From NCBI GenBank assembly GCA_012295275.1, contig CM022679.1:13702001-13766000 (forward strand): 64,000 bases of DNA, written 5' to 3'. Made by a program: the position numbers and the translations under genes. This DNA comes from Chrysomallon squamiferum. Its lineage: Eukaryota; Animalia; Mollusca. Under the pieces are notes generated by a model, which had not been told where the DNA came from, ran no database searches, and was given only the letters and a program-made list of their open reading frames with translations. Below are positions 2,456 through 26,928 of the stretch, one piece after another. Positions within the stretch are counted from its first letter, which is position 1, and each line of letters starts with the position of its first letter.

Positions 2456-4433
2456 AAGTAATCAATATGACACATGGAACAACGTTTAGATGTGTCCACT
2501 ATACATGTGATAAGATAGAAGAGTACTGTGTACCTGAAGACCAGAGGTGCTATTACTGCAAAGACATCAGTGATTTGTGCTTCACAATGCGTTTGGTTTT
2601 CCCTAAACAGTGTACTCATTTCTGTAAAGGTAGGTAGATGTGTATGTATGTATGTGAGTTTGTGTTTCTGCGTGTGTTTAGTTGTATGTATGTGTGTGTG
2701 TGTAGTTGTGTGTATGTCTGTGTATGTGTCCTTTGTGTGTTAGTATCCGCATGTATGTTTTTGAATATTTATGCATGAGTATGTGTATAAAGGTTTCTGT
2801 TAAGAAATATTTTTGCTATGTGTATGTTTTAAAATGTTTCTATAAGGCAGGTCTTTCTAGGCTAGATGATATTATATTTTATAACACTACTGTCACAATT
2901 TTTATGTTTTATTATTTGACAAATAAATAAATAAACAGATAAACCACGAAACAAACAATTAAACAAACAAATAAATAGGTAAGTAAATAAATAAATAAAC
3001 AGGCAAACAAACAAACACAGAGATTTTCACTGTTTACAAGTTTTTTGTTTTTAATCTCATTTTGTACGGAGTAACAACTTTTCTCTGTGCTTATTTCACA
3101 GATTATGTTTGTTTTTTTGTTTTTATTCCAGCTTTCCTTGATAATCAGGCAAAGACAGGTAAAGCTTTTTATTATTACAGCCAAAAAATTATAAATGTTT
3201 GTGTGTGTATATCTAAGATTATGTGTGTGTGTTTGTGTGTGTCTATATAGCTACGTATGTTTATGTGGATATATGTGTGTATGAATGCATGTATGTCTCT
3301 GTGTGTATATATATATATATATATGTACGTTTGTGTGTGTGTGTGTTTAAGAATTAAAAAACACAGGCATAGGAATGTTTTCATTAAAAAAAACATTTTC
3401 TAATTTTATCTCAAGGGATTCAAGTTGACTTAAAGTTGATCATGTAATATATATTATAGTGGTGCATTGGTCCTTTGGCTATATATTTGGCTATGAGAGT
3501 GTGTGTGAGCGTCTGTGTGTGTGTTTATTAGAGGTTTCTAATTAAAAAAGTTTTTGCTATGTGTATGTATTGAAATATGTCTATAAAGCAGGTCTTTCTA
3601 GGCAAGATGATACTATATTTTATAACAGTACTGTAATATTTGTATTATGTGTTTCGTTATTTGATAAATAAATAAATAAATAAATAAATAAACAAATAAA
3701 TAGACAAACAAACAAATAAACAAATAAATAAATAAACGTTTGTGTTTTTGATCTCAGTTTATACACAGTAACAATTTTTCTCTATGTTTATTTCACCAGA
3801 TTATATTTATTTTGTTTGTTTTTGTTTCAGATTTCCTTGGCAGTCAAATAACAGAAAGTAAGGCTTATTATTACTACAGTCATGAAATAATAAATGCTTG
3901 TGTACGCATATCTGTGCTTATATGTATGTATGTATGTATGTATTACGGCAGTGTTTGTGTATGTATGTATATATAGTATGTGTGTGTGGATATGTGTATG
4001 TATGAATGTATGTATATATTTTATGGCAGTGAATATGTGTGTGTGTTTGTGTGTTTGTATATATGTATGTGTGTATGTATGTATATATGTATATGTGTGT
4101 ATGTATGTATATATGTATGTGTGTGTGTATATGTGTGTATATGTATATGTACTAAGGCAGCAGTCGAGTTTGCTTGATAACAGTGGCAAAATTTATAGTT
4201 TTTTCTAAATGTGATTTTACAAAGTTACTTTGATTGTATTTCAGATCTTCCACAGAATAACGAGGTCCTTTCTACAGCACTTTCCATAGCATGTCTAATA
4301 GCAGTAGTATTATTATCAGCTGCAGCTGTACTGGTTTTCCTAAAATGGAGAAGACTGAGTAAGAACAAACATGAACACGGTGTTGAAAAAGTTGAAGAAC
4401 AAACAGAACTAATGAAAACAGGAAAAACAGCAG
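2456..4433 (+). CDS. Single-CRD TNF-receptor-like (Grindelwald/BCMA-like) gene copy A; exons 2456-2629, 3132-3158, 3831-3857, 4245-4433; tail exon missing
   Basis: All exons are AG/GT-flanked, phase 1 and multiples of 3. From ATG 2467: MTHGTTFRCVHYTCDKIEEYCVPEDQRCYYCKDISDLCFTMRLVFPKQCTHFCK-AFLDNQAKT-DFLGSQITE-NLPQNNEVLSTALSIACLIAVVLLSAAAVLVFLKWRRLSKNK... Similarity to paralogues stops at about 4469. Confidence 0.75.
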
Positions 4434-6242
4434 GTGAGTTATACAGCTATTTTTAAGTTAGCAAAGTCTCTTATTTCAGAGTCTAAAGTGTTTTTCAGTG
4501 TAGAAAATTGATGTTTAGGGCATATATTTTGAGAAACTGCCAGGTGACAACTTCTCATCCTTGAGCAGTTTGTGCTAGGAGGCAAAATCCAAGATGGCCA
4601 TCAGCAAATCTATTTTCCTCATATCTTCATAACTAGACTGGATAGAAGCATGAACAAAAGATTGTTTTAATGTTTTGAGGCATGAATAATTTAATGCAGC
4701 TATGACTTGTTGTTGTTGCAATAAAACAAAAAGAACTAAAGATGGCAACACAAAAGGATGAAGATATGGCTGTTTTAAGTCTGTGTTGGTCTTTTAATAA
4801 AGGCTAATAAGGTATAGGCTACTAACTAATAGGTAAATAAAAATAATTAATTATTGAATTGTCCAAACAACAGTCTACAATTATAATTATGACATCAAAT
4901 TATTGTCAGAATTCTACTCTAAAAAGACTGCATAAAAGAAGTCTGAAAATATTTTGGTGTCCATTTTCTACAATGGTGTACTTTCTTAAAAACTGTACTG
5001 CCTCAACAGTTAAATCATTTAAGTCCATTCTAACTTTAAAACATAAAAGTTACAAATTTATATGTATTTTCTATATACTTATTGTTGTTGTTGTTGTTGT
5101 TGTTATTCTTCTTCTTATTATTATTATTATTAAGAAAATGTAATATTTCTCTGATGTGCAGATTATTATATTTATTTATTTATAAAATAATAAGCGACAC
5201 TGAGTGTTTTGTGAAATGATGAGCATTGTAACCTCTGATTCTGCCTAAATCACAACTGTGTCGGAAAGTTCATAATCGGATTTTAATTTTTGAAAATTGG
5301 CATCTAAGTTTTTTAAATGAAATTTGTTATTTATGTATATATTCCAATTTATTTTATTTTGATGAACCATCTACATCTCCTACCAAATTATTTTAGTATT
5401 TTTATTTTTTATTTTTATAATTTATATTTAAATTTATTCATAGCATACAACATAGGAAATGCTTTTATAAACAGTTGTATTATACTGTATGGATATATAA
5501 TTTTTCTTCAGATTCAAATTGGTAAATTAAACAATATATAATTTAATGATACGTAAACATTTTCTTAGTTTGTACAACACCCTTAGTAAGAGGAAAGAAA
5601 TAAGAAATTAAATAAGAACTATCTAATTATATAAAAATTTAATTAAGTAATTAAGTGTCTAAAAAGACAAACAAATATATTATTTTTTAAAATTTTGTTG
5701 TTAAAACAAGTAAGAAATGCATGTTGATACATTTTATTAATTAGTTATAAAATAAATAATAATAATTATTATTCAGTTGTTGTTTTTATTATTATTATTA
5801 GATATTTGTTGTATTCAAAGTACTTTGGATATTTATTATTTAACATGAAAAAAGAAACTACAGTAATGTTTAAGTTAACTGAAAATTCATAGAAAAAAAA
5901 ATAAACAAATAATAAAATCAAGAAATTAAAGTTACATATTAAATGAAAAAATAAATAAATACATAAACAAATAAATAATTAAACAGAAAAATAAATAAAT
6001 AAATATTTTACAGGCATTTCACGGTGTCATATACTTTGAACAAAACTTTGGTAGGAATGATTCCTCAACAAGTAATCTTAAAATATTATTTCATAATAAA
6101 TTTAAATAAAATAATACCTAAAATGCAGTGACACTGAGTGATGATATCCCCATCTGAACATGGCTAATATGGAAAACTCGTACCTGAAATTGTATGTAAT
6201 TAAGTGTGTCTACAGGAGAGGCCAGGGCTGCATGGGATACGT

Positions 6243-9065
6243 TTTGATCACACTCCACCAACATGTGGCACATTGTCAGAGGACACTGACAGTGTTCACA
6301 CTGAGGTGGACAGTCCTTCTTCAGGATAAATGAATGGATCAAACAAGTATAACCGATGCGAGACTCACACAAGATCATCTCATCCTTCAGGCACTGCCTG
6401 TAAGAGGACTGCAAACTCCCAGGACTGGCTTCAAAGAATAAAGTTTGTTCACGATCACACTGTTTCAACCATCCTACCAATTTGAAAAAATATAATTGTG
6501 AATTTGATGTTTTGCAGACATGCAACTTGCCAGGGCAATAGGGCAATCATTTCTAGGCTGAGTTGGACCCATACCAGGCTTTAGAATAGCAATTACAATT
6601 GCTTTCCTCCAATCAGAAGGAAAGTTACCAGAAATCCAGATTTTATTGAAAATGTTTAGAAGCAAGAGAGAAGAGCTGGGTAAATGTTTAAGTGACTGAT
6701 AGTGCATTTCATCTGGGCCTACTGAAGTGTCATAAGCTCTACGTAGAGCATTCTGCAATTCTTCTATGGAGAAAGGCATATTGTATACTTCAGCATTATC
6801 AGATGAAAACTGCTTTTCAGTTTTATTAGGTTCAGATGCGAAATCATCTGTACTGAAAGAAGAGGAAGAATTACGAGAAAAGTTATCTGCCAATACATTA
6901 GCAATGTCACAGATTTGACTGACATTTGGGAATTTATATTGGTAATATATTTCCTCAAAGACTATGTCGGATGTTGCTGCATGCCTTAGCCCTCGCAATA
7001 CAATAAGCATCCAGGTTGCCCTTAGTTATCTCGTTTGAACCTTTCCAAGGCCCTGTTGCACTCTTTGATTACATCTTTGCAAGAATCAGTAAACCAAGGT
7101 TTATTGAAATTTGGTATTGCCGAAGTCTTAGGTATAGCCACTTCTGCAATGTCCTTCAAGATGGAAGTAAACAAGGAAATGGGATCACCAGCATCTGTAA
7201 AGGCAGACAAGTGCTGCATAGATGTTAGAATTCATCCCAATTTGCCCTCATCAGCTTCCATCTTTGAACCGTTTCAAGAGAAGGTGGTCCATCATAATAC
7301 TCCGAGAAAATGAGAAAATGGTTACTACCAAAAGGATTGGGACCAACCTTCTAGGAGAAATCAAGACTAATGGATATAAAGGGTTAAATCTATTGAAGTG
7401 AAGGTACCTCTTGCAGAATGAAAATGTGTGGCTTTTATCGTTAAAAAGAATCAAATCATTTTTAAGAATTAAGTCTTCCAATTATTGACCTCTATTATTA
7501 ACCTCTTCACATCCCCACAGTTGACCACTGAAATCTCCCATCAGAATAAAAGGAGATGGGAGTTGGTCGATGAGTACTTGGAAGTCTTGAGACTTAAAAT
7601 TGAAATGATTGTGAGGAGGTAAATAAATTGAACATACAGTTATAGTTTTATGACTTGTGTCTTTAACAGCCACAGTCTGTAAGATGGTATTTAATGTAAG
7701 TATGCTCTGGGGACATATTCTCATTAACAAGAATAGGAACACACCCAGGTACTCTATGTTCAGTTTCCTGAAATTTGTGGTAGAGATGAAATCGCCAACA
7801 GTAATAGGATTAGTGTCTTTAAAGAAAGTCATGAAGATGTACTGCAAGGGGATTATGTTTAACGATTAAAAGGATCAACTGATCAAAATTGGGTCTAAGC
7901 ACATGGCAATTCCATTGAATGACTGAATTAGTCATTAGTAGGTAGTATGGGGTTTTACTTTTCTTTGGCAATTTTCAAAGTTTTCGATGATTATCTGACA
8001 TATCCATCAGATCATCCATATCAGGCAACATTCTGTAAGGATTATTGATCTGAATCAGTTGTTTTTCAGATTTCTTTAATCTTTCTGAAGAAGAATCACA
8101 ACTCTGGGTTTTTTTGTTTCTTTTCCAGAATGAGGCTTGCTTAAACCTGGAAGATGAGCCTCTTGAACAATTTTTAGAATCCAAAGAATTCCATGTTTTT
8201 GCTTTAGGATTCTTTCTTTGTTTTTTCAGTATCAGAAATATTTTAAAATTGATCTACACCATTTGACCATGATAAGTCAGCACATGATTTACTGAATATT
8301 GAAGAAGACTCAGGCTCAGGGAATGAGTTTTCTTTCCACTTTAATAGGCTGTAGCATTTTTTCCAGTTTCCACCGTGAGCATTTTCACAGTATGCAAAGT
8401 GTTTTCCTCCACAATTGACATATCTTGCTTTCATGGTCAAACTGACCACACTGAGTATATGTCAATCTGTTATGACATGTATTTTTTGTCCATGTCCATA
8501 TTTGTCACATTTAAAACATTGTAGAACAGCAACATACAATTAGATCTTGAAGAGTGGACACATTAAATGTCAGAATAAAGGTATGTGTTGGTACTTGTGA
8601 CTAGATCTTCGCAAAATTCTTCCTAATATCTTCCAGATCCCTGACCAAATCACTCCTTTTGATTCAGTGTTGTGTGTGGACCAACTATAATAAATTTGCC
8701 ATTTAAGTAAATTTTTGGAATGATTCTCTGTTGAGCATTCTACCACCAATGAATCATTCCTTGGTTTCTTAGCATTTTTAGGCTCACTGGCCAAGCCTTG
8801 GAGCCCCTTATGTATCATAAAAGGTGATAGTTTTTTCAAGGCTTGATCATCAGCAGACACAATGAGAAACGTCAGCCAGGTTTTAGAAGAAATAAATTTT
8901 GATTTCTTCACAATATTTGTAGTCTCTTCATCAGAAGATGATGATCCAATAACCACAGTGTGGACTCTTTTCAGTGTTCCATCAGTCATAACTGAGTAAT
9001 TTAAGTTCATCAACCATGACGCCACCAGACACCGAGTCCAAAAAGAGGAACCACCCCCTAGAGCA
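6243..9065 (-). mobile_element. Degenerate non-LTR retrotransposon (I/Nimb-like LINE) with RT/RNaseH core deleted
   Basis: ORF1 remnants (LKKLSPFMIHKGLQGLASEPKNAKK; knuckles CFKCDKYGH, VNCGGKH); APE endonuclease (QWNCHVLRPNFDQL, TVCSIYLPP, PFILMGDF); pre-RT (GPDEMHYQSLKHLP...FPSDWRKAIVIAILKPG...PIALASC); C-terminal CEHCQCPLTMCHMLVEC. Many frameshifts; ends approximate. Confidence 0.9.
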
Positions 9066-10766
9066 ATTATATAGATCTTCAGTATACCCATCCTTTTCCA
9101 CAACTGACAAATTTTCATGACATTTATGTCCATGGTCAAAAATTTATTCCTTCTCACTGGTGCCCATCTATTCCCCAGTGACAACGGAAATGAATTCACA
9201 GCAGAACTAAAATTGTGTGACTCAGGCTGGTTATCATCCATGATTTGAGTTTACATAAAGTGTTACATTAAGATTCAAGTGGTGTGGTATTACAGATAGC
9301 ACTTTAGTCATTTTATATAATGCCTGGTCATGATTTTCAGTTATTTTGTTAAGTGGCTGGAATTTTCAACTATTTTGTTAAGTGGCTGGAATTTTCAACT
9401 ATTTTGTTTATTTCGTGGTTGTGTCTGACTCATTTGTTTGAGCATTTGCATAATGACTGATTTCAAAGATTGATTGTAATATACATACAATCAAATCATA
9501 CTCAAGATAAAAAAATAAAATGGGTTAACTAATATTCAGTGACATCCGAGGGGCTTTTATTTTTTAATTTTTAATTATTAGTATTATATATATATATATA
9601 TATATTTGTTTTTAAATTTATTATTATTATTTTTTGTTTATTCAAACAACGGTATGTAAAATTAAAAAGAATTCAAAAATTGCAAAAAATAGATTTTAAT
9701 GCATTAAGTACATCGAATGATAAAAGTGGAAAAAGACAAAAACCTGTTATAGCCAAAGATAAAATATATTTCAAAACTAAATAAAGAGTAATAATTGGCC
9801 AAAGAAACTTGTTCTCAACTCCTTTACAAAAATGTTAGTATTTATGATATTTTGCAGAATGTTTGTATTCCTGGCAAAGTGGGGAAATGTCAGTGAAAGA
9901 GGGCGAGATCCAACAGCACATCACAACATGAGGAACTCTGCTGCCACTGGCAGGGAAATATCGGCAATGAAGACGTGACTCCATATATAATTCAAATCAG
10001 CCTGTGATTAAGAACAGCACTGCCTTTGGTGCGGAAATATTGGCAGATGAAGACATGTCTCCATGTGCAGGTGATGTCAGCCCAGTTACTGTAGGATGGA
10101 AGAGGATGAGTCACCCTTTTCTAGGTGTTGTCTGCCAGATGGAAAAGTTCTGCTTTCTTTGTTGAGAATAAGTCATTTTGTCTCTTTGCTTCTACAAAAA
10201 TTCAATTATGTATTTGTGTTACAGTTTGCAATTTTTAAAATACCACTTTGTTTGTTTTTTCAATGAAATGAGTAATTCTAAATTTCATTACATAAAATGA
10301 ATTATGGTCAAACCTCTTTATAACATCCCCTGGTTTGATGCTATCCCTGTTTTCTGTCCTGACAATGACTGACCACCAGTTTTCTGAATACGTAAAAAAC
10401 ATGCAATCTGGTACTGATTCCTTGATATTAAGAATGACAATATCAGCAGTTTAAATGGTTCAATGATTTGTTTTTTCTGACTTGGCAGCTTATCTAAATA
10501 CAGCAGTTTATATCTCAGCCTTTTTTTATGTTATTTTCTAAGAGAAGTGGACAAAGCACTGTACATTTTTGGGTCAGTATTGAAATAATTCATAACATCA
10601 GAAAAGGTATTGTACCACCCAAAGTCACTTTAATGCCAAAACAATATTAACACCAGGCTTTATAATAGAAATAATTTCACTTTAACTAGACTGCTACCTG
10701 AAAAATAAACTTGACTTTAAACAAAATGTTTAGTTTTATGCTGTACAGTAAACAATTTCACCTGAA

Positions 10767-13700
10767 CTAAACGTAAGGGTTTCTCATGAAACCCCTACTT
10801 GACAGCGTTTTGGTTCTTCTCGACCGACGATACTTGTAAGTGTCGTTGAGCATTTCGGGAGGCGGTGGTGGTGGTGATGTGCGAAGTCGTTTCTGCTAAA
10901 ATGTTTAACAATTGATTATTTTACTAATGTTTGCTGTTATAGCATTTCTTTACAGTAGTAATACAGCATGAACATGAGAGAAAAAACAACAAACCTATTT
11001 GCATACTGTCTTATTCTTACTGAACTTTTTGCATATTAGTTACATATTTGAGAAACAAAATCAAAGTTGACAAAACATTTATTTTATCTATAGGATGATT
11101 ACATTATTTTACTATTAATGAAATGACATACTCCCTTTGTGACAATATAATAACTTAAAAAAATGATAGCTGTACCTTTCTTTTTCTTTGGGTTCTCTCT
11201 GGAAAGAAAATAAATTACAAAACATTTCTTTAATGAGTTTCTGCTAACAGTGCAGTCTACCTTATCTAACACAGATCTACAATAAAAGGCAGTCTAACAA
11301 AACAAGCAATGTTTGGTTTCTACACATTTTCACCTGAGTAAACAACATAATGGAAACCTAACAAAACCAGAATCTGTCTATTCTGAAAACTGGATTTTCT
11401 TTCTTTCATTTCTTTTCTCGTTTTAGATTTACATCATCTGATAATAATTCTCATTTTTCAAACTATTCTGAACCATTAGTTTTTCTTAAAATAAAATATG
11501 TAGTAATACCAAAATAATATTTACTTTCACTGCTTTTTTTCGTGTCCTTTAATGTGTCTTCTGAAAATACAGAATGTTATATTTAATGTTTATAATTAAT
11601 ACTGTAAAGTTAGATTCAAAGGAAAATTTATATTAAAACTGTTATTATTATTTGGAAAGATAAATTCAATTAAGGAGATTTTCTTTCAATTTTTCAATTA
11701 TTTGTCATTTTTGTCCTAGAAGAAAACAAAAATGATCATATAAAGTATCACAGATCTTATTTAGCAATATGACCATGCAAAGAATTACTTGAATGAGTTT
11801 CTAAAAATATAATATTGATTTGTCTTTTAAGATAATTCACAAGAAATCATTTTAGAGGTAATACAGTCTGATAAAGGCTGGTGCCTGTATTAAACCTAGC
11901 ATCATCATTACCATCATGATCATTATTTTTGTTATTGTTGTTGTTGACGTTTTAAGTGATTTATACTGTGTATACTGAAGTTAACCAAATCATCAAACTT
12001 TATACTTTAAAGGATGGAAGCCAGTTGCTCCCTTAGGCTAGACAAATGAGTAGTGCAGAGACGAAGTATTTACTTCAGTAAGCTTAAGTCCATTTTCAGG
12101 GAGTCACATTTCCTTTGGTTTAGTATTAAAGCTACAGAGCTCCACTTTTTATTCAGTTAAATTATTTTGTTTGGCCTGAAGAAGGTTTGTAAATTCTTAT
12201 ACTCATACTTAATATTCTGCAGTTATGGAGTCCAGTGTGTTGTTACTTCAGCAATGGTGGGGGATGATGGTCACAAAGCTATTGCACTGTGCCTAGTGAC
12301 TTAGTTTGACTTAATCCTGCTGTTGGTAATACTCTGTAACTGACCATCACACTGACATTTCTTTATAAAAACTACGCTTTGTAGTACCAGAACAAAATTT
12401 CAGAATGTTTTTTAAAAAATAAACTCTTTAAAAAGAATTCATAAAATATAATTAAAAATATATATTTACTTTTTTGGGGACGACCTCGTTTAGGTTGTTC
12501 TGAAAAACAGTAATGTTAAAATTAATATAAATGAAATATATTATTATTAATTTTCATCCTAATTATCATATCACTGGGAAATTTCTTACGCTAAGATGTC
12601 TGTCAAGTCTAATACTAATAGGAATAGGAATAAGCATAAACATAATAAGTATAATAATAATAATAATAAATCATTCACACTTGTCAATTCGGAAAATATA
12701 AATGAAATGAGGATCAAATATTAAAAGTCTCTAAAACATTTATACAGAAGTTTGAACGTTAATTTCACTGAAATCTAAGTTGATCAGACAAACACTTCCT
12801 GTTATTTTGTTCAGGCATATTATGTTCTATATATATATATAGTTACAGTAAGAAAAAAGTCATTTTTATTACATGTGTAGATGTAACAAGCACTAAAAAT
12901 AATTTACATAGTGAAATGCACAATTATGAATTAAAAAAGAACATGAACCAAAAATCATGACACAGTAATACAAATTGCCAACTGAAAAACAAAATATGAA
13001 ATATTTGCTAAGGTAGAATGGCAAAGTATATTTTTTGAGAATATGGCAGGCTGTTCACATGCAATCAGTACATGATAAAACTGGCTGTGAAGGTTTATTA
13101 CCAAACTGAAGACAGCAAGGGAGTCATCTGGCACACTTAAACATGTTGTTACACATTACAAATGGTCAGAAGAAAAAATATGACCACAGGCCTTGAAATT
13201 TAACTTCAAATACTTGCTCCTATAAATAAAGGATTCAGATCTGGTTAAATGCCACAAGGCCATTTACATCCAGTTTTTATTTAACAGTTTACCTACAACA
13301 AACTCTTATTTTTTATTCTGCATTTATGGAGTTTCAGTGTTGTCACTTAAGCAGTGGGGTATCTGAGAAGTTTTGCCCTAATCCTCAACTTGGTAACAGT
13401 CTAAAAACTACCCAAACCTAACACATCGATACTTCTTTATAAGAAATCCACTGACATTTTAAGATATTTAATTTTTTTTGAAAACAACATATAAATTTCT
13501 TTTCTTTCTTTCTTTTTATCATTTATTTAAAAAAAAGAAAAAGTAGAGGAGTGACAGAGAAAGAAATGATAAACAATAAAAAAGACAGTCTTCTTTAAAA
13601 ACCTTTAATGAAGTATAATAATCAAAAATATTTACTCACCCTTTCTTGGTCTTCCCCTTTTTCTGCCACTACGATTTTCTGAAAATCAGTAAATGAGTGA

Positions 13701-13975
13701 TGTTAATATTAAATATATAATCTGAGATGGTCTGCTAATTACCATATTTCCTGGGGACTGTCTTATGCTGCAATTTAACTGGGTTTCACTGTTTCAAGTG
13801 TTTTCTGTTATGTCCGACGTTTGTAGAAATGACACTGGTTTCCCAACAAAAACAAAAATAGCACTTTTGTCACTATCAGCATCTATTCAACATCGATTTC
13901 AGTACCCGTGGTTTGTATTTACATACCTCTTGTTTCTGTCAACCATACCTCTGTGGGATTGACAGATTGTGATAC
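10767..13975 (-). CDS. Small basic two-AT-hook protein built from micro-exons: 13975-13927, 13678-13640, 12499-12470, 11560-11525, 11198-11176, 10895-10767; start exon uncertain
   Basis: Six AG/GT-flanked exons join in phase: VSQSVNPTEVWLTETR-ENRSGRKRGRPRK-EQPKRGRPQK-KDTLKDTKKSSE-KRTQRKRK-QKRLRTSPPPPPPEMLNDTYKYRRSRRTKTLSSRGFMRNPYV*; two RGRP cores. Confidence 0.65.
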
Positions 13976-14403: not shown

Positions 14404-14439
<36 letters not shown>

Positions 14440-14879: not shown

Positions 14880-15000
14880 TGATTGTTAAAACAATTGATC
14901 AGTTGTCTAACCATGACAACAGCGTTTCGATTGGTTTAAACTAATGACGTTGACATGAACCACATCGCGCATTGTCGTCAAACTACGCAAAACACATCTT
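14880..15000. promoter_or_regulatory. Candidate promoter upstream of the AT-hook gene
   Basis: Within about 50 bp: RFX half-site-like CCATGACAAC (14911-14920), ATTGG (14930-14934), TGACGT (14945-14950). Short motifs only. Confidence 0.3.
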
Positions 15001-15788
15001 TCAGCGGAAAGCGATTTTAAAAGCGTTAACTCAGCTTCTTTCACGCTTCACCCTATTACAAGTACTTTTTCTTTTAACTAATTCAATTCTTTGGTATGGA
15101 TTAAACTGAATTTCTAATATTCATAAACATATATTATAATTTCTGATTAAGATAAATTCATAATGGCCGAAAACAAATTGATTAGTTCAGACACATTCAG
15201 TGTTCTCTTCAACATATAAAAAGATACTGTTAACAAACTGGAAAACAATAATAGAGACTAACTGCATCAAAACGTTTATTTTATAATATGTTGGTTTTTG
15301 TCGGTCGTTTTCGGCACCATATTTCTGTGTTCTTTCAATTTTGATATTAAATGTGATCATCTGTAAACAGAATGTCTCAGGAGAGAGTTACTTGGGGGGG
15401 GGGGGCTTCCCAGTTGCACAGTCGTCCATACCCGGCTAAAAAAACAACAAAACAAAAACAACTGATGGCCACGTTTATGAATCTTCTAGTGCCCTCATTC
15501 ATGTATAACGCCTGAGAAACAGCAACCAGTATCAGTGGAAACTCGACTGTTTCCTTTCCTTAAGAAATCGCTGTTAATGGAAGAATGAGTGACTGTTATA
15601 TTGCTGAATTAGTTATTTATAATATTCTTGTCGTATTCTCTTACAGAAGCAAGCCATTTTTCTTTTCTTTCATTCTTTTTTCGTTTTGTTTTTTAATAGA
15701 TAGATGAAATTGATGTAAAATTGTTTATTGGTTGGTTGTTTTGTAACGGAAAGGAAATGTTTATGAATTAGAAATGACCAGTTTAAAA

Positions 15789-15789
<1 letters not shown>

Positions 15790-15834
<45 letters not shown>

Positions 15835-15902
15835 GTAACAGTAATTATAATAATAATAATAAGAAGAATACGAATAATAATAATAACAATAATAATAATA
15901 AT
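15790..15902. repeat. (AAT)n microsatellite
   Basis: Imperfect AAT run; explains the poly-N and poly-Y ORFs. Confidence 0.9.
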
Positions 15903-17589
15903 GTTGATGATGATGAGAAGGACAATAATGAAAAAGTAACAAATCTGCAACAAATGAGCAGTGAATGCTTATTCTGCTTTCGATTGATGTTACATAATCG
16001 ATTTAGGAACAATGCGCTCCGCCTCTAAATGTTAGAAAGAAACCAGATGTATGCACAGGCCAAGTTTATTATATACAGAAGTAATCAGGTATTGCGGTAG
16101 ACCAGCTTTTTCTACGAAATGGGAATTATACGAACTGGGAATTCTAACAAATGGGAAGACACCTTGCAGATTACTGCCATGTCAAGAGGAACCTTTGCTG
16201 TAGGCGTATGTCAGACTGCGGGCACAGTGAGGTTAAACCTGTGACAACACAAGTGTAAACTATTAAAGCGTACCTGTGGGTCTGATAAATTGTGTGATAA
16301 AATTCTTAATACTTATACTAATGTTTTGATACGCGAATGGTCTTTAATAGCAAAGTTTAAAAAAAATAATGATAATAATAATAATAATAATAATATATGG
16401 CGGACTAATAGCATTTTTTTTTTGTTTTGTTGTTGATATAACTCATTACAAATTAACACTGGACTGCAAAAACGTAACTTGGAAGTATAAAGAATATATT
16501 TATAATACATTTTTCTAATCAGCAAAGAGAGATTATAATTTCTATAAACTACATGTAAAGGAAATCATTAATTAATAAATTAAAAAGACAAAACAAAACA
16601 ACAGAAGAAGAAGAGAAATAATATTTAAAGTAAAAAATAAATAATGGAAGTGATGATGGCAGTAGCATCAGTAATAGTAGTGGTAGTTGTAGTAGTAGTA
16701 GCAATAGTAGTAATGAACTTCATCAACAAAACCTGAGAATTGTGAGCAAACAATTCAAATCTATCTATGTATGTATGTATGTATGTATGTATGAATGTAT
16801 GTATGTATGTATCTATCTATCTATCTATCTGTCTGTCTATCTATCTATGTATCTATCTATCTATGAAAAAGCAATCGGTGATATTATAGTCTCTCAAGCC
16901 TCCCATAAGTTTGTTAACGACATAATTATTTTCCTCCTCTAATTTCTTATCCAGCCTCTGTTTTAAAAATAGAAATCGAAAACCAAAATTTATATCCGAA
17001 AATTGAGCGATATAGGACATATTATTATATTCTGCTTTATAAACATATTTCTATTTACTTTTGAATCATTTTATTATTTATTTTTTATTTTTATTTTTAT
17101 TTTTATTTAATTTAATTTTATTTAATTTTATTTTAAATCATAAGAAAATGTGTAATCATATGTAATCAATGTTACCTGTCCCGTAGCTGTATTTGCAGAT
17201 GCAATGACAGGCTTTCTTTTCCTTCTTTCTTTCTTTCTTTCTTTCTTATTTATTTATTTGTTATTTTTATTGTAACATTTTGTAATGTTTTTAGATGTTT
17301 ATTATTATTATTATTGTTATTATTGCAATATTTTATTTATTTATATATTTTTAATTTAACAATTTTGATATAAAACCATCATATGTTAACTTATGTTCAT
17401 GTACTGAATATTTTACAAAGCAATATCGCTATGCCATTATTTTATAATTAAAACAAGAGAAAAAGGGGAGAGAGAAAAAAAGGCTTCTTGAATGCTTCGT
17501 CTTTATTTTATGTACTTTGGGATTAACTTGAAGAAGCAATAATAATAATAATTAAACTTTAAAAAATTAATAATAATAATAACAAATTA

Positions 17590-20500
17590 AAATAGAGTCA
17601 TATAATTTCCGGTATGGATTTACTATTAATTTGGAAATTCCTTTTTCTTAACATATACCGTATGAAATTTGCTTAATTTGTTTTTGTCTGTATATTGTTC
17701 TTATATTATTATATTACCGTATTAAATAAACGTTATGTGTCTTAAGTTTAATGTTTTGGTAAATTTGAGTGTTTTTGTTTAGATTCGCGATTTCACAGAC
17801 TTTTGTATTAACTCTATCGCTCTATGAAATCGAGTGCCACCTGTAAATTATTAAAAATATTGTATAGAATTAATTAGCTGCATACTTTCTGTAAAATCTG
17901 TCTACGAAATATGAACGTTGTCAGAATGTCTAAGGTAAATAATGACACGGCAAAATAACTTTTTCTATATTTTCGAAAGAAATTAAAAAAATACAACAAA
18001 TAAAATAATAAATAAATAAATAAATAAATAAAAAAAAAAAAATAAACTAAAATAAAGACGTGCAATTTCCGGTACGGATTTACTTTTAATTTGGAGAATA
18101 GAACTATTTATATCGCTTACGCGACACGTGATTATTTTGTCTGAATAAAGCTGAATACACGTCATTTCCCGCTTGAAACCTTGCCTCTACGTACTATTAA
18201 GTTATTCTGTGTTCAACTATAAGATCGCGACAGCCCCTTCTGAATCAATTTCCATCAAGGTAAGAATACCTTTTACAATTCACCTATAACTATACCCAAC
18301 CTAGTCTATATTTTTTTTATTCCTTCCTTTTTTCTTAACATATACCGTATGAAATTTGTTTAATTTTTTTTTGTCTGTATGTTGTTTATATATATTATTA
18401 CATTACCGTATTAACTTTAGATGTTTATGTGTTCAGAAAAGTTTAATGTTTTGGCTTGAAATTTGAGGGTTAATATTTAGATTAAATTATTTCCAGACTA
18501 TTTTGTATTAACTCTATTGCTCTGTGAAATCGAGTGTCACCTGTAAATTATTAAAACATATTGTATAGAATTATTTACCAGCATAACTGTCTGTATGAAA
18601 TTTGTTTAATTTGTTACGAAATATGAACGTTGTGAGAATATCTAAGGTAAAAAAATGACATGTTCTTAAAAATAACGTTTTGTATATTTTTCGAAAGAAA
18701 TTAAAAAAATAATAATAATAAAATTAAAAACAATAAAAAATAAATAAATAAATAATATTAATAATAATAATACATAAATTAATAAATTAAATAAACAATA
18801 ATAAAATATGCAAAATAAAAAATATTTTTTTAAAATAAAAAATTGTAACTGAATATATTAAATAAATAAATTGGTCGCTTATCATGATCTTTAATAGTGT
18901 ACTATTGTTTCTTTGTAATTAAATAACTTCAATATAATGATGTAAATAAAAAAAAACCATATATTATATTATTTTTATATATTATTAAATAAATAAAGGA
19001 TAGCTTATCAAATGATAAAACAGTAGGGGATTACAGTTTCTTTTATTTTCCAAAAGACCAACAATGGATTAACATTTTACATTATATTACAAAATGGGAG
19101 ATGGAATCAGCATATTCTGTTGCAGTTTACTGCCATGTCAAGAGGAACATTTGCTTTAGGCGTATGTCTGACTGCGGGCACAGTGAGGTTAAACCTGTAA
19201 CAACACAAATGTTAACTATTAAAGCGTACCTGTGGGTCTGATAACTGGTTTGATAAAATTATTTTTACTTATATTATTCTTTTGATAGGCGAACGGTGTT
19301 TTATATCAAAGTTTAACAATAATAATAATAATAATAATAATCATAATAATCATAATAATAATAATAATAATAGAAAAGATAAAGAAAAAAGAGATGGAAG
19401 TGAAACTAATAATAATTATCTTTCGATCAACTTTTTACGATGTGAGAATAAGGAAACATTTGTCAGTGTCAGTCCTTGTTTGCGAATCAACCTGTAAGTC
19501 TATTATTAGTCCACCCACTGCTCCACTAGGTGCGTATCTAGAATTTGAAGGAGATACATGTATCTTTGATATCAGATTTCTAGCTAATTTTTGCTTCCCA
19601 TTATGTTATTAAATATTTAATATGCATTACAAAAATAATCTTACTTTCAAGGATTGTTATAGAAATATAAATTTATTCAAAGCAAATAAAATTTGTATCA
19701 CTAGATCTCTTATATTATTTTTTCACCCACCTTTAGTAAACATCCTTTACAAGAGCTTTGTATATAACTACAGAAATTGATGAAACTAAAAATATACTAA
19801 AACAGCGGATAAAGGAGAAGAGATATCAAGTTATTATTAACTTATTGTTTTAGGCAACTTCTCTTCAGTAAAAACAATATAAAACAATACATCTGAACGC
19901 CGCCATTTTAACTAATCACAGCTGATGTAGTAACATCATCGCGTATATGGCGGACTAATAGCAGTTAGTATCTTTCCTCTTTTGTTCATATACTTCGTTA
20001 CAAATTAACACTGGACTGTAAAAACGTAACTTGGAAGTATAAAGAATATATTTATGTAATTACCAAAGATAGATTATAGTTTCTATAAACTACATGTAAA
20101 GGAAATCATTAATTAATAAACTAAAAAGACAAAACAACAACAACAACAACAGAAGAATAAGAGTAATAATATTTAAAATAAAAAATAAATAATTTAAGTG
20201 ATGATGGCAGCAGCATCAGTAATAGTAGTGGTAGTGGTAGTTGTAGTAGTAGTAGCAATAGTAGTAAGGAACTTCATCAACAAAACCTGAGAATTATGAG
20301 CAAACAATTCAAATCTATCTATCTATCTATCATCTATCTATGAAAAAGCAATATTATATTCTGTTTCATAAACATATTTTTATTTTATTTTGAATCATTT
20401 TTCTTTTTTTTAATTTAATTTAATTTAATTTAACTTTTTTATTATTATTATTTTATTTTGAGTCATATGAAAATGTGTAATCATATGTAATCAATGTTAT

Positions 20501-22048
20501 CTGTCCCGTAGCTGTATTTGCAGATGCAATTACTGGCTTTCTTTTCCTTCTTTCTTTCTTTCTTATTTTTTTCTTATTTTTATTGTAACTTTTTGTAATG
20601 TTTTTAGATGTCTATTATTATTATTGTTATTATTGCAATATTTTATTTATTATATAATATTTTTAATTATAATTTTGACATAAAACCATCATTTGTTAAC
20701 TTATGCTCATGTACTGAATATCTTACAAAGTAATATCTATATGCCATTATTTTATAATTAAAGCAAAAAAAAAATGTATTAATAGTTCGTAATGTTTCGT
20801 AATGTCTTTATTTTATGTACTTTGTGATTAACGCGACACGTGATTATTTTGTCTGAATAAAGCTGAACACACGTCATTTCCCGCTTGAAACCTTGCCTCT
20901 ACGTACTATTAACTGATTCTTTGAGACGAAAGTGAACACAAAAGGAAATAATTACAGGAAAGCAAATCATCCAGGTAAGTAAAATTACTAAACTTTAATG
21001 TATTGGTAAATTTTAGGGTTAGTATTTAGATTCGCGATTTCCCAGACTTTTGTATTTTCCGGACTTGTGTTAACTCTATTGCTCTGTGAAATCGAGTGTC
21101 ACCTGTAAAGTATTAAAATTACTGTATAGAAGTAGTTACCTGCAGACTGTCTGTATAATCTATGTATTAAATATGAACGTTGTGAGAATATCTAAATTAA
21201 ATAATGACATGGCAAAATAACGTTTTCTATATTTTCAAAAGAAAAAAAAAAAATAATAATAAAAAAAAAAAAAAAAAAAAAAAAACAAAAACAAATAAAT
21301 AAACAAATAAATAAATAAATAAAAAAATAAAAATAAAATAAAATAAAGACGTGCAATTTCCGGTATGGATTTACTTTTAATTTGGAAAATAGAACTATTT
21401 ATATCGCTTACGCGACACGTGATTATTTTGTCTGAATAAAGCTGAAGACACGTCATTTCCCGCTTGAAACCTTGCGTCTACGTACTATTAACTTATTCTA
21501 TGTTCAACTATACGATTGCGGCAGTCCTATCTCAATCCAATTTCCATCAAGATAAGAATACATTTTACAATTCATTCATAACTTTACCAAACGTAGTCTA
21601 CATTTTTGTTCCGTTCCTTTTTCTTAACATATACCGTATGAAATTTGTTTAATTTGTTTTTGTCTGTATATTGTTCGTAGATTGTTATATTACCGTATTA
21701 AATAAATGTTATGTGTTCTAAAGTTTAATGTTTTGGTAAATTTGAGGGTTAATATTTAGATTCGCGATTTCCCAGACTTTTGTATTAACTCTATTGCTCT
21801 AAGAAATCGAGTGTCGCCTGTAAATTATTAAAAAATATTGTATAGAATTAATTACCTGCATACTGTCTGTATAATCTGTCTACGAAATATGAACGTTGTG
21901 AGAATATCTAAGGTAAATAATGACATGGGAAAATAACGTTTTGTATATTTTCGAAAGAAATAAAAAAATAAAATAAAATAAAATAAAATAAAATAAAAAT
22001 ACAAATACAAAGAAATAAATATATAAATAAAAAAGCAATAATAAATAG

Positions 22049-22094
<46 letters not shown>

Positions 22095-22680
22095 ATACAT
22101 ACATACATACATACATACATACATACATACATACATACATACATACATACATAAATAAGTTAAATAAACAATAATAAAATATGTAAATAAAAAATATGTT
22201 TATAAATATAAAAAAGGAATAAAAAATAAAAATTATAGTTTGCGACATGGATTTATTTTTAACATGGAAATTCCGAACTGTTTATATCTCTTAAACGAAA
22301 CGTGATTTAAGGTTAATCTGTCATTTCCGATATGAAACCTTGCCTCTAGGTACTTTTTAGTTATTCTGTGTTCAGCTACACGATCACGCAGCCCTCTGCT
22401 AATCCACTTTCCATCAAGGTAAGAGTACATTTTACAATTCACCCACAACTATACCCAACGCACTCTACATTTTTCTTCTGTTCCTTTTTCTTATACCGTA
22501 TGAAATTTCTTTAATTTGTTTTTGTCTGTATAATGTTTTTAGATTATTATATTACCGTATTAAATAAATGTTATGTTTTCTTAAGTTTAATGTTTTGGTA
22601 AATTTGAGGGTTAATATTTAGATTCGCGATTTCTCAGACTTTTGTATTAACTCTATTGCTCTATGAAATCGAGTGTCACC
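17590..22680 (+). repeat. Reiterated ~0.7-kb module (GAAATCGAGTGTCACCTGTAAATTATT...)
   Basis: Copies near 1, 17827, 18527, 21088, 21803, 22666; inverted copies near 37170, 49930, 54400. Always upstream of, and co-oriented with, a receptor copy or a paralogous position. Confidence 0.8.
19021..19190 (+). pseudogene. Orphan copy of the receptor leader segment without CRD (also about 16145-16235 + and 36500-36690 -)
   Basis: Aligns to the sequence just 5' of the CRD in copies C and D (AAAATGGGAGA...GGAACATTTGCT.TAGGCGTA), then diverges. Confidence 0.6.
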
Positions 22681-23952
22681 AACAAGCTGAAAACAACGAG
22701 AAAAATGCGGACCATAACATTCTGCAAAAAGAAGGTCTTTTATAAACATGACCATGTTTTCAAATAATAATAATACTAATAGACATAGCTGACATTTAGC
22801 TATATTCGAATTACCTATATATGAATAATATATATGCCCATACACAGCATTGAACAGAAAAAATGAAGAAGGAAATGTTTTATTTCATGACACACTCAAC
22901 ACTTTTTATTTACGGTTATGTGGTGTCGGACATACGGTTAAGGACCACATTATATTGAGAGAGGAAACCCGCTGTTGCCACTTCATGGGCTACTATTTTT
23001 GATTCGCAGTACCATCCCACAGATAGAGTAGCATATACCAATTATAGTGCACTGGTTGGACTAATGGATCCACAGACAGTGTTAAAAAAACGAAAAACAG
23101 TAATGTGTGTGTGTTGCATATGTCCAAAATTGGTTTTGAGGTGAATTCAAACTAAACAGCTGGACGATTTATTGTAAAAGTTCAACTATTACAAATAGTC
23201 ATGAAAAGACACGTGTGTTATTTCTTATATTCTGGTTTGTTACTTTTCTTTTTTCTTTGCACTGTAATAAACCATGCTGCAATATCAGTTAATACCAAAA
23301 TACACTCATCCAGTTTTACAGGAGCAGTCAGCCTCTGATAGTTGTTTCGTCACCAAGCAAACTTGAATATGTGGTTTGTGTGTCGAGTCGTTTTTCATCA
23401 TGGAACACCAGCATCTCGCATTCACTTTCGGTTAATTTTTGTCGGACATTTTTGTTATCATTGATGTAGCCTTGTCGTCGATGCAGATATAATGGACTGA
23501 TAGCTACAGTTTGTTTGACAACATTAAAAAATAATAATAATAAAAAACAAAAATGAAGAAAATTATTATTTAAGGCAAGATAGCAGAGACATAAATGGAC
23601 ATAACTGAAAAGTATGCAGAATATATATATAATATGTGTTTATGAGTGTATGTGTGTATGTACATATATATGTTGTTTAGGATTTTGAATATTCTCTGTG
23701 AAATCTACGTCTGAATAGACTCTTCACAGACAATATTCGGGAACGCTGTGGTGCAGGAGGGTAAAATCCAGTCACGACTTCAAACCCTCGTCAGATGCCG
23801 CACATATGACACCCTGTCGCTCGCACTACTGTTCGGTCATCAAGACCACCTTTATACACACACACACACACGCACATATACAGGTACTTCTATGTGTGTG
23901 TGTGTGTGTGTCTATATATATATATGTGTACGTATGTATGTATGTATGTATG

Positions 23953-23987
<35 letters not shown>

Positions 23988-24064
23988 GTATGTATTTTTG
24001 CATAACCAAATACACTCTTTAATTGGAATTTAGAGAAATAATAACAGTACAGTTTTATTTTCAG

Positions 24065-25424
24065 ACGTAGACAAGATGACCACTGGAACAACGTATAGAT
24101 GTGGCAACGATGTATGTGATGAGATAGAACATTATTGTGTACGTGAAGATGAGAGGTGCTATTACTGCAAAGACATCAGTGATTTGTGCTTCACAACGCG
24201 TTTGGATTTCCCTAAACAGTGTACTCGTTTCTGTAAAAGTAGGTAGATGTGTATGTATGTATGTATGTGAGTTTGTGTTTGTGTGTGTGTTTAATTGTAT
24301 GTATGTGTGTGTGTTTAGTTGCATGTATGTTTGTGTGTGTTTCTGTATGCAGTTGTGTGTATTTGTCCTTTGTGTGTTAGTATCCGCATGTATGTTTTTG
24401 AATATTTATGCATGAGTATGTGTATAAAGATTTCTAATAAGAAATATTTTTGCTATGTGTATGTTTTAAAATGTTTCTATAAAGCAGGTCTTTCTAGGCT
24501 AGATGATACTATATTTTATAACAGTACTGTAACATTTTTATTATGTCTTGTTATTTTACAAATAAACAATAAATAAATAAGCAGATAAACAAACAAACAA
24601 ATAAATAAATAAACACACAGATCTTCACAAAGTTAGTTACAACTTTTGTTTTTGATCTCATTTTGTACAGAGTAACAACTTTTCTGTGTGCTTATTTCAC
24701 AGATTTTATTTGTTTTCTGTTTTGGTTTCAGATTTCCTTGATAATCAGACAAAAAAAGGTAAAGCTTTTTATTATAGCCACAAAATAATGAATGTTTGTG
24801 TATATCTGTGTGTGTGTATGTGTTTGTGAATGTGTATTTGTCTGCATATGTGTACGAGTATATATGTATGTGTGTATCTTTGTATGTTCACTATGTATGT
24901 ATGTATGCATGTATATATTATGCAGTGTATGTGTATGTACGTTGGAATGTATGTATAGTATGTATGTATGTGTGTGTATGTATGTTTATAGGTATGTGTG
25001 TTTGCATATATATTTGTGTATGTAGGTATTTATGCATAGTATATATATATGTGTGTGTGTATATATATATATATATAACACTACTGTCACAATTTTTATG
25101 TGTTTCATTATTTGAAAAATAAATAAATAAATAAATAAACAGGCAAACCACGAAACAAACAATTAAACAAACAAATAAATAGGTAAGTAAATAAATAAAT
25201 AAACAGGCAAACAAACAAACACAGAGATTTTCACTGTTTACAAGTTTTTTGTTTTTAATCTCATTTTGTACAGAGTAAGAACTTTTCTCTGTGCTTATTT
25301 CACAGATTATATTTGTATTTTGGTTTTGTTTCAGCTTTCATTTCTAATCAGACAAAGACAGGTAAAGCGTTTTATTATTACAGCTAAAAAATTATAAATG
25401 TTTGTGAGTGTATATCTAAGATTA

Positions 25425-25462
<38 letters not shown>

Positions 25463-25754
25463 TACATAGCTACGTATATTTATGTGGATATATGTGTGTA
25501 TGAATGCATGTATGCATGTATATACAGACGCACACACACTCTCTCTCTCTCATATATAGCCAAAGGACCAATGCACCCTATAATATATATTACATGATCA
25601 ACTTTAAGTCAACTTGAATCCGTGTTTAAGAATTAAAAAACACAGGCATAGGAATGTTTTCATTAAAAAAAACTTAAAGTTGATCATGTAATATATATTA
25701 TAGGGTGCATTGGTCCTTTTGCTATATATTTGTGCATGAGAGAGAGAGAGAGAG

Positions 25755-25805
<51 letters not shown>

Positions 25806-26928
25806 ATTAGAGGTTTCTAATTAAAAATGTTTTTGCTATGTGTATGTTTTAAAATGTGTCTATAAAGCAGGTCTTTCTAGGCAAGATGATGCTATATTTT
25901 ATAACAGTACGGTAATGTTTTTATTATGTGTTTCGTTATTTGATAAATAAATAAATAAAAAATAAATAAATAAACAGACAAACAATCAAATAAACAAATA
26001 AATAAATAAACGTTTGTGTTTTTGATCTCAGTTTATACACAGTAACAATTTTTCTCTGTGTTTATTTCACCAGATTATATTTTTTTTTGTTGTTTTTGTT
26101 TCAGATTTCCTTGGCAGTCAAATAACAGAAAGTAAGGCTTATTATTACTACAGCCATGAAATAATAAATGCTCGTGTATGCATATCTGTGCTTATGTGTA
26201 TGTATGTATGTATGTATGTATGTATATATGTATGTATTACGGCAGTGTTTGTGTATGTATGAATGTATGTATATATTTTATGGCAGTGAATGTGTATGTG
26301 TGTTTGTGTGTGTGTTTGTATATATGTATGTGTGTATGTTTGTATATATGTATGTATGTGTGTTTGTATATATGTATGTGTGTGTGTTTGTATATATGTA
26401 TGTATGTGTGTTTGTATATATGTATGTGTGTGTGTTTGTATATATGTATGTGTGTATGTTTGTATATATGTATGTGTGTGTGTTTGTATATATGTATGTG
26501 TGTGTGTTTGTATATATGTATGTGTGTATGTTTGTATATATGTATGTGTGTGTGTTTGTATATATGTATGTGTGTATGTTTGTATATATGTATGTGTGTG
26601 TGTTTGTATATATATATATGTGTGTATGTTTGTATATGTATATGTACTAAGGCAGCAGTCGAGTTTGCTTGATAAAAATGGCTAAATTTATAGTTTTTTC
26701 TAAAGGTGATGTTACAAAGTTACTTTGATTGTATTTCAGATCTTCCAGAGGATAACAAAGTCCTTTATATAGCACTTTTCATAGCATGTCTAATAGCAGT
26801 AGTAGTATTATCATTTGCAACTGTACAGTTTTTCCTAAAATGGAGAAAACTGAGTAAGAACAAACATGAACACGATGTTGAAAGAAATGAAGAACAAACA
26901 GAACTAATGAAAAAAGAAAAAACAGCAG
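24065..26928 (+). CDS. TNFR-like gene copy B; exons 24065-24238, 24732-24758, 25335-25361, 26105-26131, 26740-26928; tail exon not seen before the gap
   Basis: From ATG 24076: MTTGTTYRCGNDVCDEIEHYCVREDERCYYCKDISDLCFTTRLDFPKQCTRFCK-NFLDNQTKK-AFISNQTKT-DFLGSQITE-NLPEDNKVLYIALFIACLIAVVVLSFATVQFFLKWRKLSKNK...; all splice sites canonical. Confidence 0.78.
26310..26640. repeat. 24-bp minisatellite (GTTTGTATATATGTATGTGTGTRT)n, about 12 units
   Basis: Visible tandem periodicity in the intron before the TM exon of copy B. Confidence 0.85.

What the first reader, a model, noticed from the sequence alone, without database searches (positions are those of the whole stretch)
3132..26131. Receptor stalk built from tandem-duplicated 27-nt micro-exons with copy-number variation
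Seen: ten 27-nt, phase-1, AG/GT-flanked micro-exons across the cluster (2 in A, C and D; 3 in B; at least 1 in E). Each sits in a duplicated 600-800-bp intron unit with shared flanks (GTAACAACTTTTCTCTGTGCTTATTTCACAGATT...). Each encodes 9 aa of the form (A/D/N)F(L/I/V)x(N/S)(Q/H)xxx, and none has a stop or indel. The first two units of B carry NQT glycosylation sequons. Inference: stalk length and glycosylation or shedding can change in 9-aa steps, by duplication and by frame-preserving exon skipping.
Basis: partly seen in the sequence, partly recalled or inferred. Interest (0 to 1): 0.72.

Follow-up and report, generated by a model that had tools for sequence, protein, structure and literature searches.

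The report
Snail receptor stalk of duplicated micro-exons
Five neighbouring snail genes for likely TNF-type receptors carry tiny duplicated exons, at least two of which are spliced into one message, and each would lengthen the stalk between the predicted binding domain and the membrane by nine amino acids, likely tuning how the receptor is displayed or clipped off.

Summary
All ten 27-nt AG/GT exons exist (five lie on the minus strand, outside the given coordinates), all are phase 1-1, and every combination tested in genes A-D stays in frame. Contigs of one RNA run splice them: one has exactly 54 nt between the cysteine-rich (CRD) and membrane exons, and another points to a three-exon chain. 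No direct CRD-to-membrane joint was seen among 6 contigs. The genes encode single-CRD membrane proteins resembling BCMA, Fn14 and Grindelwald (weak, consistent fold hits), probably without a signal peptide. In the vent snail Gigantopelta aegis, database isoforms of a homologue differ by one 9-residue segment at this position, the footprint of one skippable exon. The copies form three classes older than the gene duplications. Not shown: skipping in this species, copy-number differences between individuals, any effect on glycosylation or shedding. Sequons occur in 2 of 10 copies, and absence of stops is uninformative. Stalk micro-exons that tune shedding or glycosylation are known (CADM1, CD46); the amplified cassette in an invertebrate TNFR-like family is a new variant.

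The parts
2456..2629 (+). Gene A CRD exon (8 Cys; conserved Met at 2467)
3132..3158 (+). Micro-exon A1, class beta
3831..3857 (+). Micro-exon A2, class gamma
4245..4433 (+). Gene A membrane exon; no tail exon found downstream in the window
24065..24238 (+). Gene B CRD exon (conserved Met at 24076)
24732..24758 (+). Micro-exon B1, class alpha, with N-Q-T sequon; the extra unit of gene B
25335..25361 (+). Micro-exon B2, class beta, with N-Q-T sequon; its unit starts at a (TA)n tract near 25070 and lacks the far upstream block
26105..26131 (+). Micro-exon B3, class gamma; this exon type is spliced to the membrane exon in RNA contigs
   Evidence: joint 26131 to 26740, GT..AG
26740..26928 (+). Gene B membrane exon; an RNA contig with 1 substitution and a 3-nt insertion runs on into a tail exon
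   Evidence: record 29 and loose end at 26928
29113..29537 (-). Gene C cytoplasmic tail exon (140 residues)
31450..31890 (-). Gene C membrane exon with an internal in-frame duplication (two hydrophobic segments)
32519..32545 (-). Micro-exon C2, class gamma, identical to A2 and B3
33332..33358 (-). Micro-exon C1, class beta
33848..34010 (-). Gene C CRD coding part from the conserved Met; Cys1 and Cys3 both lost
44768..45186 (-). Gene D tail exon with an in-frame stop about 27 codons before the end
47038..47226 (-). Gene D membrane exon
47961..47987 (-). Micro-exon D2: gamma exon behind an alpha-type upstream flank (mosaic unit)
48695..48721 (-). Micro-exon D1, class beta, identical to C1
49272..49434 (-). 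Gene D CRD coding part from the conserved Met
61219..61254 (-). Gene E tail exon remnant; only the start resembles the tails of C and D
62464..62670 (-). Gene E membrane exon (most diverged)
63092..63118 (-). Micro-exon E1, class alpha, directly before the membrane exon; the upstream intron resembles sequence found after other micro-exons, so another copy probably lies beyond the window

Best explanation
These are real, frame-keeping 27-nt exons that are spliced in series between the cysteine-rich and membrane exons of a gastropod family of likely TNF-receptor-like proteins, and they likely descend from one ancestral skippable exon that was copied with its intron flanks, so that each copy would add nine residues of stalk. 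Shown: exon anatomy, in-series inclusion of two copies in an RNA contig, three copy classes shared across genes, 2 or 3 copies per complete gene. Inferred: the three classes arose before genes A-D duplicated; unequal exchange between the near-identical, microsatellite-bounded units then added or removed whole units; the first copy extends the last CRD helix and the others act as spacer; the ectodomain would measure about 61-66, 70-75, 79-84 or 88 residues with 0, 1, 2 or 3 copies. Untested: skipping in this species (about 0.6 likely) and a selected effect of length on ligand display or cleavage (about 0.35).
For: Splicing (RNA run X5, 6 contigs laid on gene B): joint 26131 to 26740 with GT..AG ends; joint between two micro-exons in 2 contigs; record 26 has CRD letters 1-82 and membrane-exon letters from 139, leaving 54 nt after the last 2 CRD bases. 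A loose end upstream of a micro-exon resembles the 3' end of a further beta-type exon rather than intron (compared by eye), and depth arithmetic fits three contigs carrying the gamma exon. Ancestry: G. aegis LOC121379917 isoforms X1 and X3 have ten residues where X2 has one Gly, the pattern expected from skipping a phase-1 27-nt exon; LOC121378842 has a segment of the same size. Classes: alpha, beta and gamma each form one side of a supported branch (97/95, 97/96, 100/100) and cut across genes. Exchange: D2 has a gamma exon behind an upstream flank nearest to B1 (0.90, against at most 0.73 to gamma units); B2 starts at a (TA)n tract; 27-78% of the 200 nt sampled downstream of each exon is TG/TA repeat. 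Helix: the model of isoform X1 has a helix over residues 57-70, covering segment residues 65-70, with block pLDDT 79. Lengths: hydropathy scan.
Against: RNA evidence is one run and 6 contigs, at 85% likeness; contigs of paralogues and alleles cannot be told apart, the micro-exons seen are not identical to B1 or B2, and one contig is intronic. No skipped form was seen in this species. The G. aegis isoforms are predicted database models; I saw neither their exon structure nor their read support. No sign of purifying selection on the peptides: within classes 9 amino-acid-changing against 0 silent differences in four comparisons, and pN is close to or above pS in all 6 CRD and all 3 membrane-exon comparisons. 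Several genes look damaged (D early stop, A no tail found, E tail cut). Abalone homologues have a longer stalk whose exon structure I could not check.
Confidence: 0.62

Rival explanations
1. Tolerated by-product: the exons are real, but their number has no selected function. A symmetric exon in a repeat-rich, recently duplicated cluster is copied and lost freely because the frame survives.
For: No excess of silent change in the micro-exons within classes or in the flanking coding exons; absence of stops is expected half the time under neutrality; lesions in D, A and E; sequons in only 2 of 10 copies.
Against: The gamma exon is identical in A, B and C and always lies next to the membrane exon in A-D; all 10 copies keep both splice sites; a segment of the same size persists in two G. 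aegis paralogues.
Confidence: 0.3
2. Cleavage switch: the proteins lack a signal peptide like BCMA, and the number of included copies moves the ectodomain across the roughly 75-residue limit for direct gamma-secretase cleavage, so short forms are released as decoys and long forms stay on the cell.
For: All 13 homologue sequences have a Met 3-6 residues before the first F-x-C motif, and none of the 11 annotated ones has a strong hydrophobic stretch before it (best 9-residue hydropathy at most 1.76). Predicted ectodomains are 61-75 residues with 0-1 copy and 79-88 with 2-3. A review states that type III proteins with ectodomains under 75 residues are cut as full-length proteins (PMC13507816, passages).
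Against: No cleavage data. Both G. aegis isoforms (74 and 65 residues) fall under the limit. Gene C has an in-frame hydrophobic upstream stretch (2.58), and 2 of the 13 homologue records (unnamed gene calls) do too. The limit comes from mammalian enzymes. Membrane-segment starts are uncertain by about 5 residues.
Confidence: 0.12
3. Mutually exclusive (Dscam-like) exon choice: one copy is picked per message to vary stalk sequence rather than length.
For: Tandem homologous exons of equal length; beta and gamma exons differ at 45% of sites against 14-25% in their flanks.
Against: Record 26 holds two copies in series and a further contig points to three; the introns between copies are 576-786 nt.
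Confidence: 0.04
4. The 27-mers are pseudo-exons inside duplicated intron units, or an assembly artefact.
For: The scaffold has two N gaps and many repeats; the flanks are as conserved as, or more conserved than, the 27-mers.
Against: Spliced joints with GT..AG ends in RNA contigs; a matching segment in homologous proteins.
Confidence: 0.02

Closest known systems
CADM1 stalk exons 8/9 (PMC5385562, abstract and outline seen)
   Same: A very short in-frame alternative exon (33 bp) in the juxtamembrane stalk; there it decides shedding, together with glycans
   Different: Ig-family adhesion molecule with O-glycans and a demonstrated effect; here a single-CRD protein, tandem duplicated copies that vary between paralogues, N-sequons in 2 of 10 copies, effect untested
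CD46 (MCP) STP exons (PMC2118878, abstract seen)
   Same: Short alternatively spliced stalk segments (STP-B, 15 residues) change stalk length and glycosylation
   Different: Ser/Thr/Pro-rich O-glycosylated spacer in one gene; here 9-residue units, not STP-rich, first one predicted helical, spread over five paralogues
Single-CRD TNF receptors BCMA, TACI, BAFF-R, Fn14
   Same: Short N-terminal CRD close to one membrane segment; 8 of the top 10 Foldseek rows for the homologue model are BCMA or TACI; Atlas feature hits are Fn14, TACI, BCMA and BAFF-R; likely no signal peptide
   Different: All scores are below significance (best E 0.34; best feature score 0.88); 8 Cys; ligand unknown; no Pfam TNFR hit
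Drosophila Grindelwald (PMC8024323, passages seen)
   Same: Eight Cys, N-terminal hairpin followed by helical module; top hit for the gene-B CRD model in both searches (E 3.6; Z 3.2, rmsd 3.7, 44 aligned)
   Different: Cys spacing C-x2-C-x6-C instead of C-x2-C-x3-C; the Grindelwald glycan (Asn63) is inside the CRD, here the sequons are in the stalk; Eiger binding is shown there, nothing here
Gigantopelta aegis LOC121379917 / LOC121378842 and Haliotis LOC124254650, LOC124254643, LOC124114668 (uncharacterized)
   Same: Same Cys frame (x10 or x8 in the last long gap), Met before the CRD, Asp right after the last Cys+1, one membrane segment; 49-54% identity of the window CRDs to LOC121379917 X1
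   Different: G. aegis has one 9-residue segment, present or absent by isoform; Haliotis has a longer stalk with an N-x-S sequon and isoforms that differ only at the N-terminus

Membership tests
Symmetric coding micro-exons | Very short exon with canonical splice sites and length divisible by 3 | tested here: met
   10 of 10 are 27 nt with CAG/GT and phase 1-1
Symmetric coding micro-exons | Included in spliced RNA | tested here: met
   Joints and the 54-nt insert in run X5; shown for exon types, not for each of the 10 copies
Alternatively spliced stalk cassette (CADM1/CD46 type) | Both included and skipped forms from one gene | tested here: inconclusive
   No skipped joint among 6 contigs of one run; both forms exist as predicted isoforms of a G. 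aegis homologue
Alternatively spliced stalk cassette (CADM1/CD46 type) | Inclusion changes glycosylation or shedding | not testable with these tools
   Only sequon presence was checked: 2 of 10 copies
Mutually exclusive tandem exons (Dscam type) | One copy per message | tested here: not met
   Two copies in series in record 26
Single-CRD TNF receptors (BCMA/TACI/BAFF-R/Fn14/Grindelwald type) | CRD fold: disulfide hairpin plus helical module | tested here: inconclusive
   Models show strands then helices; the best hits are these receptors, but with E 0.34-6.5 and Z 2.1-3.2
Single-CRD TNF receptors (BCMA/TACI/BAFF-R/Fn14/Grindelwald type) | One membrane segment shortly after the CRD | tested here: met
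   Hydropathy 2.4-3.0 over 21 residues in A-D; C has a second, duplicated segment
Single-CRD TNF receptors (BCMA/TACI/BAFF-R/Fn14/Grindelwald type) | Binds a trimeric TNF-family ligand | not tested
Single-CRD TNF receptors (BCMA/TACI/BAFF-R/Fn14/Grindelwald type) | Cytoplasmic TRAF-binding motif | tested here: inconclusive
   Recalled consensus patterns give one loose match in C, none in the tail of D, and one among 13 homologues
Grindelwald-like receptors as described in bioRxiv 10.1101/2024.07.27.603686 | CXXCXXXC signature in the CRD | tested here: not met
   Spacing is C-x2-C-x6-C in A-D and in the four homologues whose spacing was computed; not filed as a Grindelwald orthologue
Type III (signal-less) membrane proteins | No cleaved signal peptide | tested here: inconclusive
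   Met at the CRD start in 13 of 13 homologue sequences and in A-D; no strong hydrophobic leader in the 11 annotated ones; but C and 2 unnamed gene calls have one; 5' ends not seen in RNA

The most novel reading that the evidence does not exclude
A snail family of signal-less, BCMA-like TNF receptors uses a 9-residue micro-exon ruler, set both by exon skipping and by gain and loss of whole exon units, to move the ectodomain across the length limit for direct gamma-secretase release, producing membrane-bound and decoy receptors from one cluster.
Probability: 0.12. Interest if true: 0.72.

Novelty: new variant of a known kind. Interest (0 to 1): 0.42.

Why it matters
It is a clear case of a protein spacer built by repeated duplication of one micro-exon, with a likely single-copy, skippable ancestor visible in a related snail, so the steps from one exon to a variable array can be traced. 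It also flags a family of unannotated gastropod single-CRD receptors that Pfam misses. If stalk length controls release, it would give a natural 9-residue ladder for testing how ectodomain length governs shedding in an invertebrate immune-type receptor. Without that result it is an interesting piece of gene anatomy with known functional precedents.

Tried and rejected
No whole genome is held for this window, so family size and the genes' missing ends could not be checked. The run search listed 7 runs, none on record as an RNA holder of the stretch. X1 and X2 gave only short, low-identity matches to T-rich flanks and were ignored; X4 has unspliced intron cover and many variants but no contig long enough to show unit number. 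Runs X3, X6 and X7 were never laid, so skipping was examined in one run only. Pfam: no relevant family for 8 exon translations. PDB sequence search: nothing at E 0.01 or better. Word-indexed searches for longer proteins with the B CRD and the C tail found nothing, which is weak evidence of absence. The Atlas gave no usable hit for the isolated CRD. The wide fold search with the full homologue model returned only long helices. P0004 (1262 aa, 1 of 5 hits) was dropped as a spurious match to a repetitive protein. Positive selection on the micro-exons: beta and gamma exons differ more than their flanks (12 of 27 against 44 of 251, Fisher p 0.004, one underlying event), but pS (0.6) exceeds pN (0.37-0.42) on about 5 silent sites, so constrained or homogenised flanks explain it equally well. 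The extra AG 29-31 nt upstream of each exon is not a conserved in-frame acceptor: the offset is a multiple of 3 in 2 of 10. Earlier findings: two look-ups, nothing. Literature: no paper held all terms; searches listed nothing on this family by title or abstract start (listings only).
Full report
Observation. The window is AT-rich animal DNA with five related genes: A and B on the plus strand, C, D and E on the minus strand. Five of them lie outside the stated coordinates. All have CAG acceptors, 75-85% pyrimidine tracts and GTAA donors, and their spacing within genes is 603-813 nt. CRD exons end in phase 1 and membrane exons start in phase 1; all 20 include/skip combinations tested for A-D are open. 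N-Q-T sequons occur in B1 and B2 only. The lack of stops carries little weight: a neutral simulation with the minimum 18 substitutions met a stop in 50% of runs.

The exons are spliced. Four runs were laid on gene B at 85% likeness. Run X5, on record as RNA, gave 6 contigs. It shows a joint from the last micro-exon to the membrane exon with GT..AG ends, a joint between two micro-exons in 2 contigs, and splices from the membrane exon into the tail exon. In record 26 the CRD and membrane parts are separated by 54 nt after the last two CRD bases, which is two copies. A second contig has 15 loose letters before a micro-exon that look like the end of another beta-type exon, not intron (compared by eye); depth arithmetic fits three contigs carrying the gamma exon. 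I read this as a chain of at least three copies, which is an inference. No direct CRD-to-membrane joint appeared. Limits: one run, few contigs, paralogues and alleles mixed, one intronic contig. No further run was laid, so skipping in this species remains open.

What the genes are. Pfam and the PDB sequence search found nothing relevant. A profile of the four CRDs against 1.84 billion representatives gave 5 hits, 4 of them real homologues: Gigantopelta aegis LOC121379917 and LOC121378842, a Haliotis rubra protein and an unnamed gene call. A second search added further Haliotis proteins. The window is therefore most likely from a gastropod nearer to G. aegis than to abalones (inference from identity). 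Cys spacing is 4-6-6-2-6-10-3. Fold searches are weak but consistent: Grindelwald ranks first for the gene-B model (E 3.6; Z 3.2); for the better homologue model all top 10 rows are BCMA, Grindelwald or TACI (E 0.34-1.9); Atlas feature hits are Fn14, TACI, BCMA and BAFF-R, at best 0.88, which the tool rates as a lead only. The CXXCXXXC signature described for Grindelwald-like receptors (bioRxiv 10.1101/2024.07.27.603686; abstract and passages; supplements not available) is not met, so I do not file these as Grindelwald orthologues. They most likely work like single-CRD TNF receptors; ligand binding is untested. A Met sits 3-6 residues before the first F-x-C motif in 13 of 13 homologue sequences, and the 11 annotated ones have no strong hydrophobic leader, which suggests signal-less type III topology. 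Gene C and two unnamed gene calls have a hydrophobic upstream stretch, which argues the other way.

Origin of the array. G. aegis LOC121379917 isoforms X1 and X3 have ten residues after the CRD where X2 has a single Gly. That is the pattern expected if a 27-nt phase-1 exon is skipped: the split codons would read Asp and Cys when included and Gly when not. These are predicted models and I did not see their exons. LOC121378842 has a segment of the same size. The ancestral state is thus likely one skippable exon. In the window the copies fall into three supported classes, alpha (B1, E1), beta (A1, B2, C1, D1) and gamma (A2, B3, C2, D2), which cut across genes, so unit duplication likely preceded the duplications of A-D. 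Signs of later exchange are the mosaic D2 unit, the truncated B2 unit starting at a (TA)n tract, and TG/TA repeats downstream of every exon. Silent change is at least as high as replacement change between classes, so this does not show positive selection, and nothing shows purifying selection on the peptides.

How it likely works. The model of the G. aegis isoform with the segment has a helix over residues 57-70 that runs through the first six segment residues, so the first copy is predicted to extend the last CRD helix, with further copies as spacer. Predicted ectodomains are 61-66, 70-75, 79-84 and 88 residues for 0-3 copies. A review states that type III proteins with ectodomains under 75 residues are cut directly by gamma-secretase (PMC13507816, passages). 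That limit falls between one and two copies, which makes a cleavage switch testable, but both G. aegis isoforms lie under it and there are no cleavage data; I give it 0.12. A neutral history is a serious rival (0.3), given the lesions in D, A and E. Mutually exclusive choice and pseudo-exons are contradicted.

Comparison and novelty. Short stalk exons that set shedding or glycosylation are known: the 33-bp CADM1 exon (PMC5385562, abstract) and the CD46 STP segment (PMC2118878, abstract; PMC4469999, passages). Glycosylation of Grindelwald itself is discussed in PMC8024323 (passages). Searches combining micro-exon, stalk and receptor terms returned no paper, and the listings showed nothing on this family; the library lacks most subscription papers. 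The amplified, class-structured micro-exon cassette in an invertebrate TNFR-like cluster is a new variant of a known kind. Interest 0.42.

Noticed in passing
window 33849-34010 (-): Gene C has lost Cys1 and Cys3 of the CRD together. If the hairpin has intercalated disulfides as described for Grindelwald, these two would be partners, which hints at selection on the C protein.
   Followed up: partly
window 31450-31890 (-): The membrane exon of C carries an internal duplication that stays in frame and encodes two hydrophobic segments; an AG before the second copy could serve as an in-frame alternative acceptor.
   Followed up: no
window 26854 (+): RNA record 26 leaves the membrane exon at an internal GTAAGA site and joins the tail exon, which would drop 25 cytoplasmic codons in frame; an alternative donor or a paralogue difference.
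   Followed up: partly
window 16100-16400, 19050-19350 (+); 34048-34202, 36355-36700, 49446-49630 (-): Repeated copies of a candidate upstream exon. In D it abuts the CRD exon start with the first intron apparently deleted; in C it gives an in-frame hydrophobic 27-residue leader.
   Followed up: partly
window 10795-10895 and 13640-13678 (-): Exons of an unrelated gene between A and B; the 39-nt exon encodes a K-R-G-R-P-R-K motif, which I recall as an AT-hook.
   Followed up: no
window 38492-39161, 51656-53090, 55900-57377: Three arrays of a 37-bp satellite (18, 39 and 40 copies) inside larger duplicated blocks between the genes.
   Followed up: no
window 6000-9250: A more GC-rich stretch in the intron after the membrane exon of A that looks like a decayed mobile element; no tail exon of A was found beyond it.
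   Followed up: no
29-31 nt upstream of each micro-exon: A second acceptor-like AG with its own pyrimidine tract is conserved in all 10 units but not in frame; it may be a relic or a splicing element.
   Followed up: partly
Haliotis proteins P0005, P0009-P0014: All 7 abalone homologue sequences carry an N-x-S sequon in the stalk just after the CRD, so stalk glycosylation may be old in the family.
   Followed up: no
window 27638-27837 and 53823-54022: Two 200-N gaps; the tail exon of B probably lies in the first.
   Followed up: no
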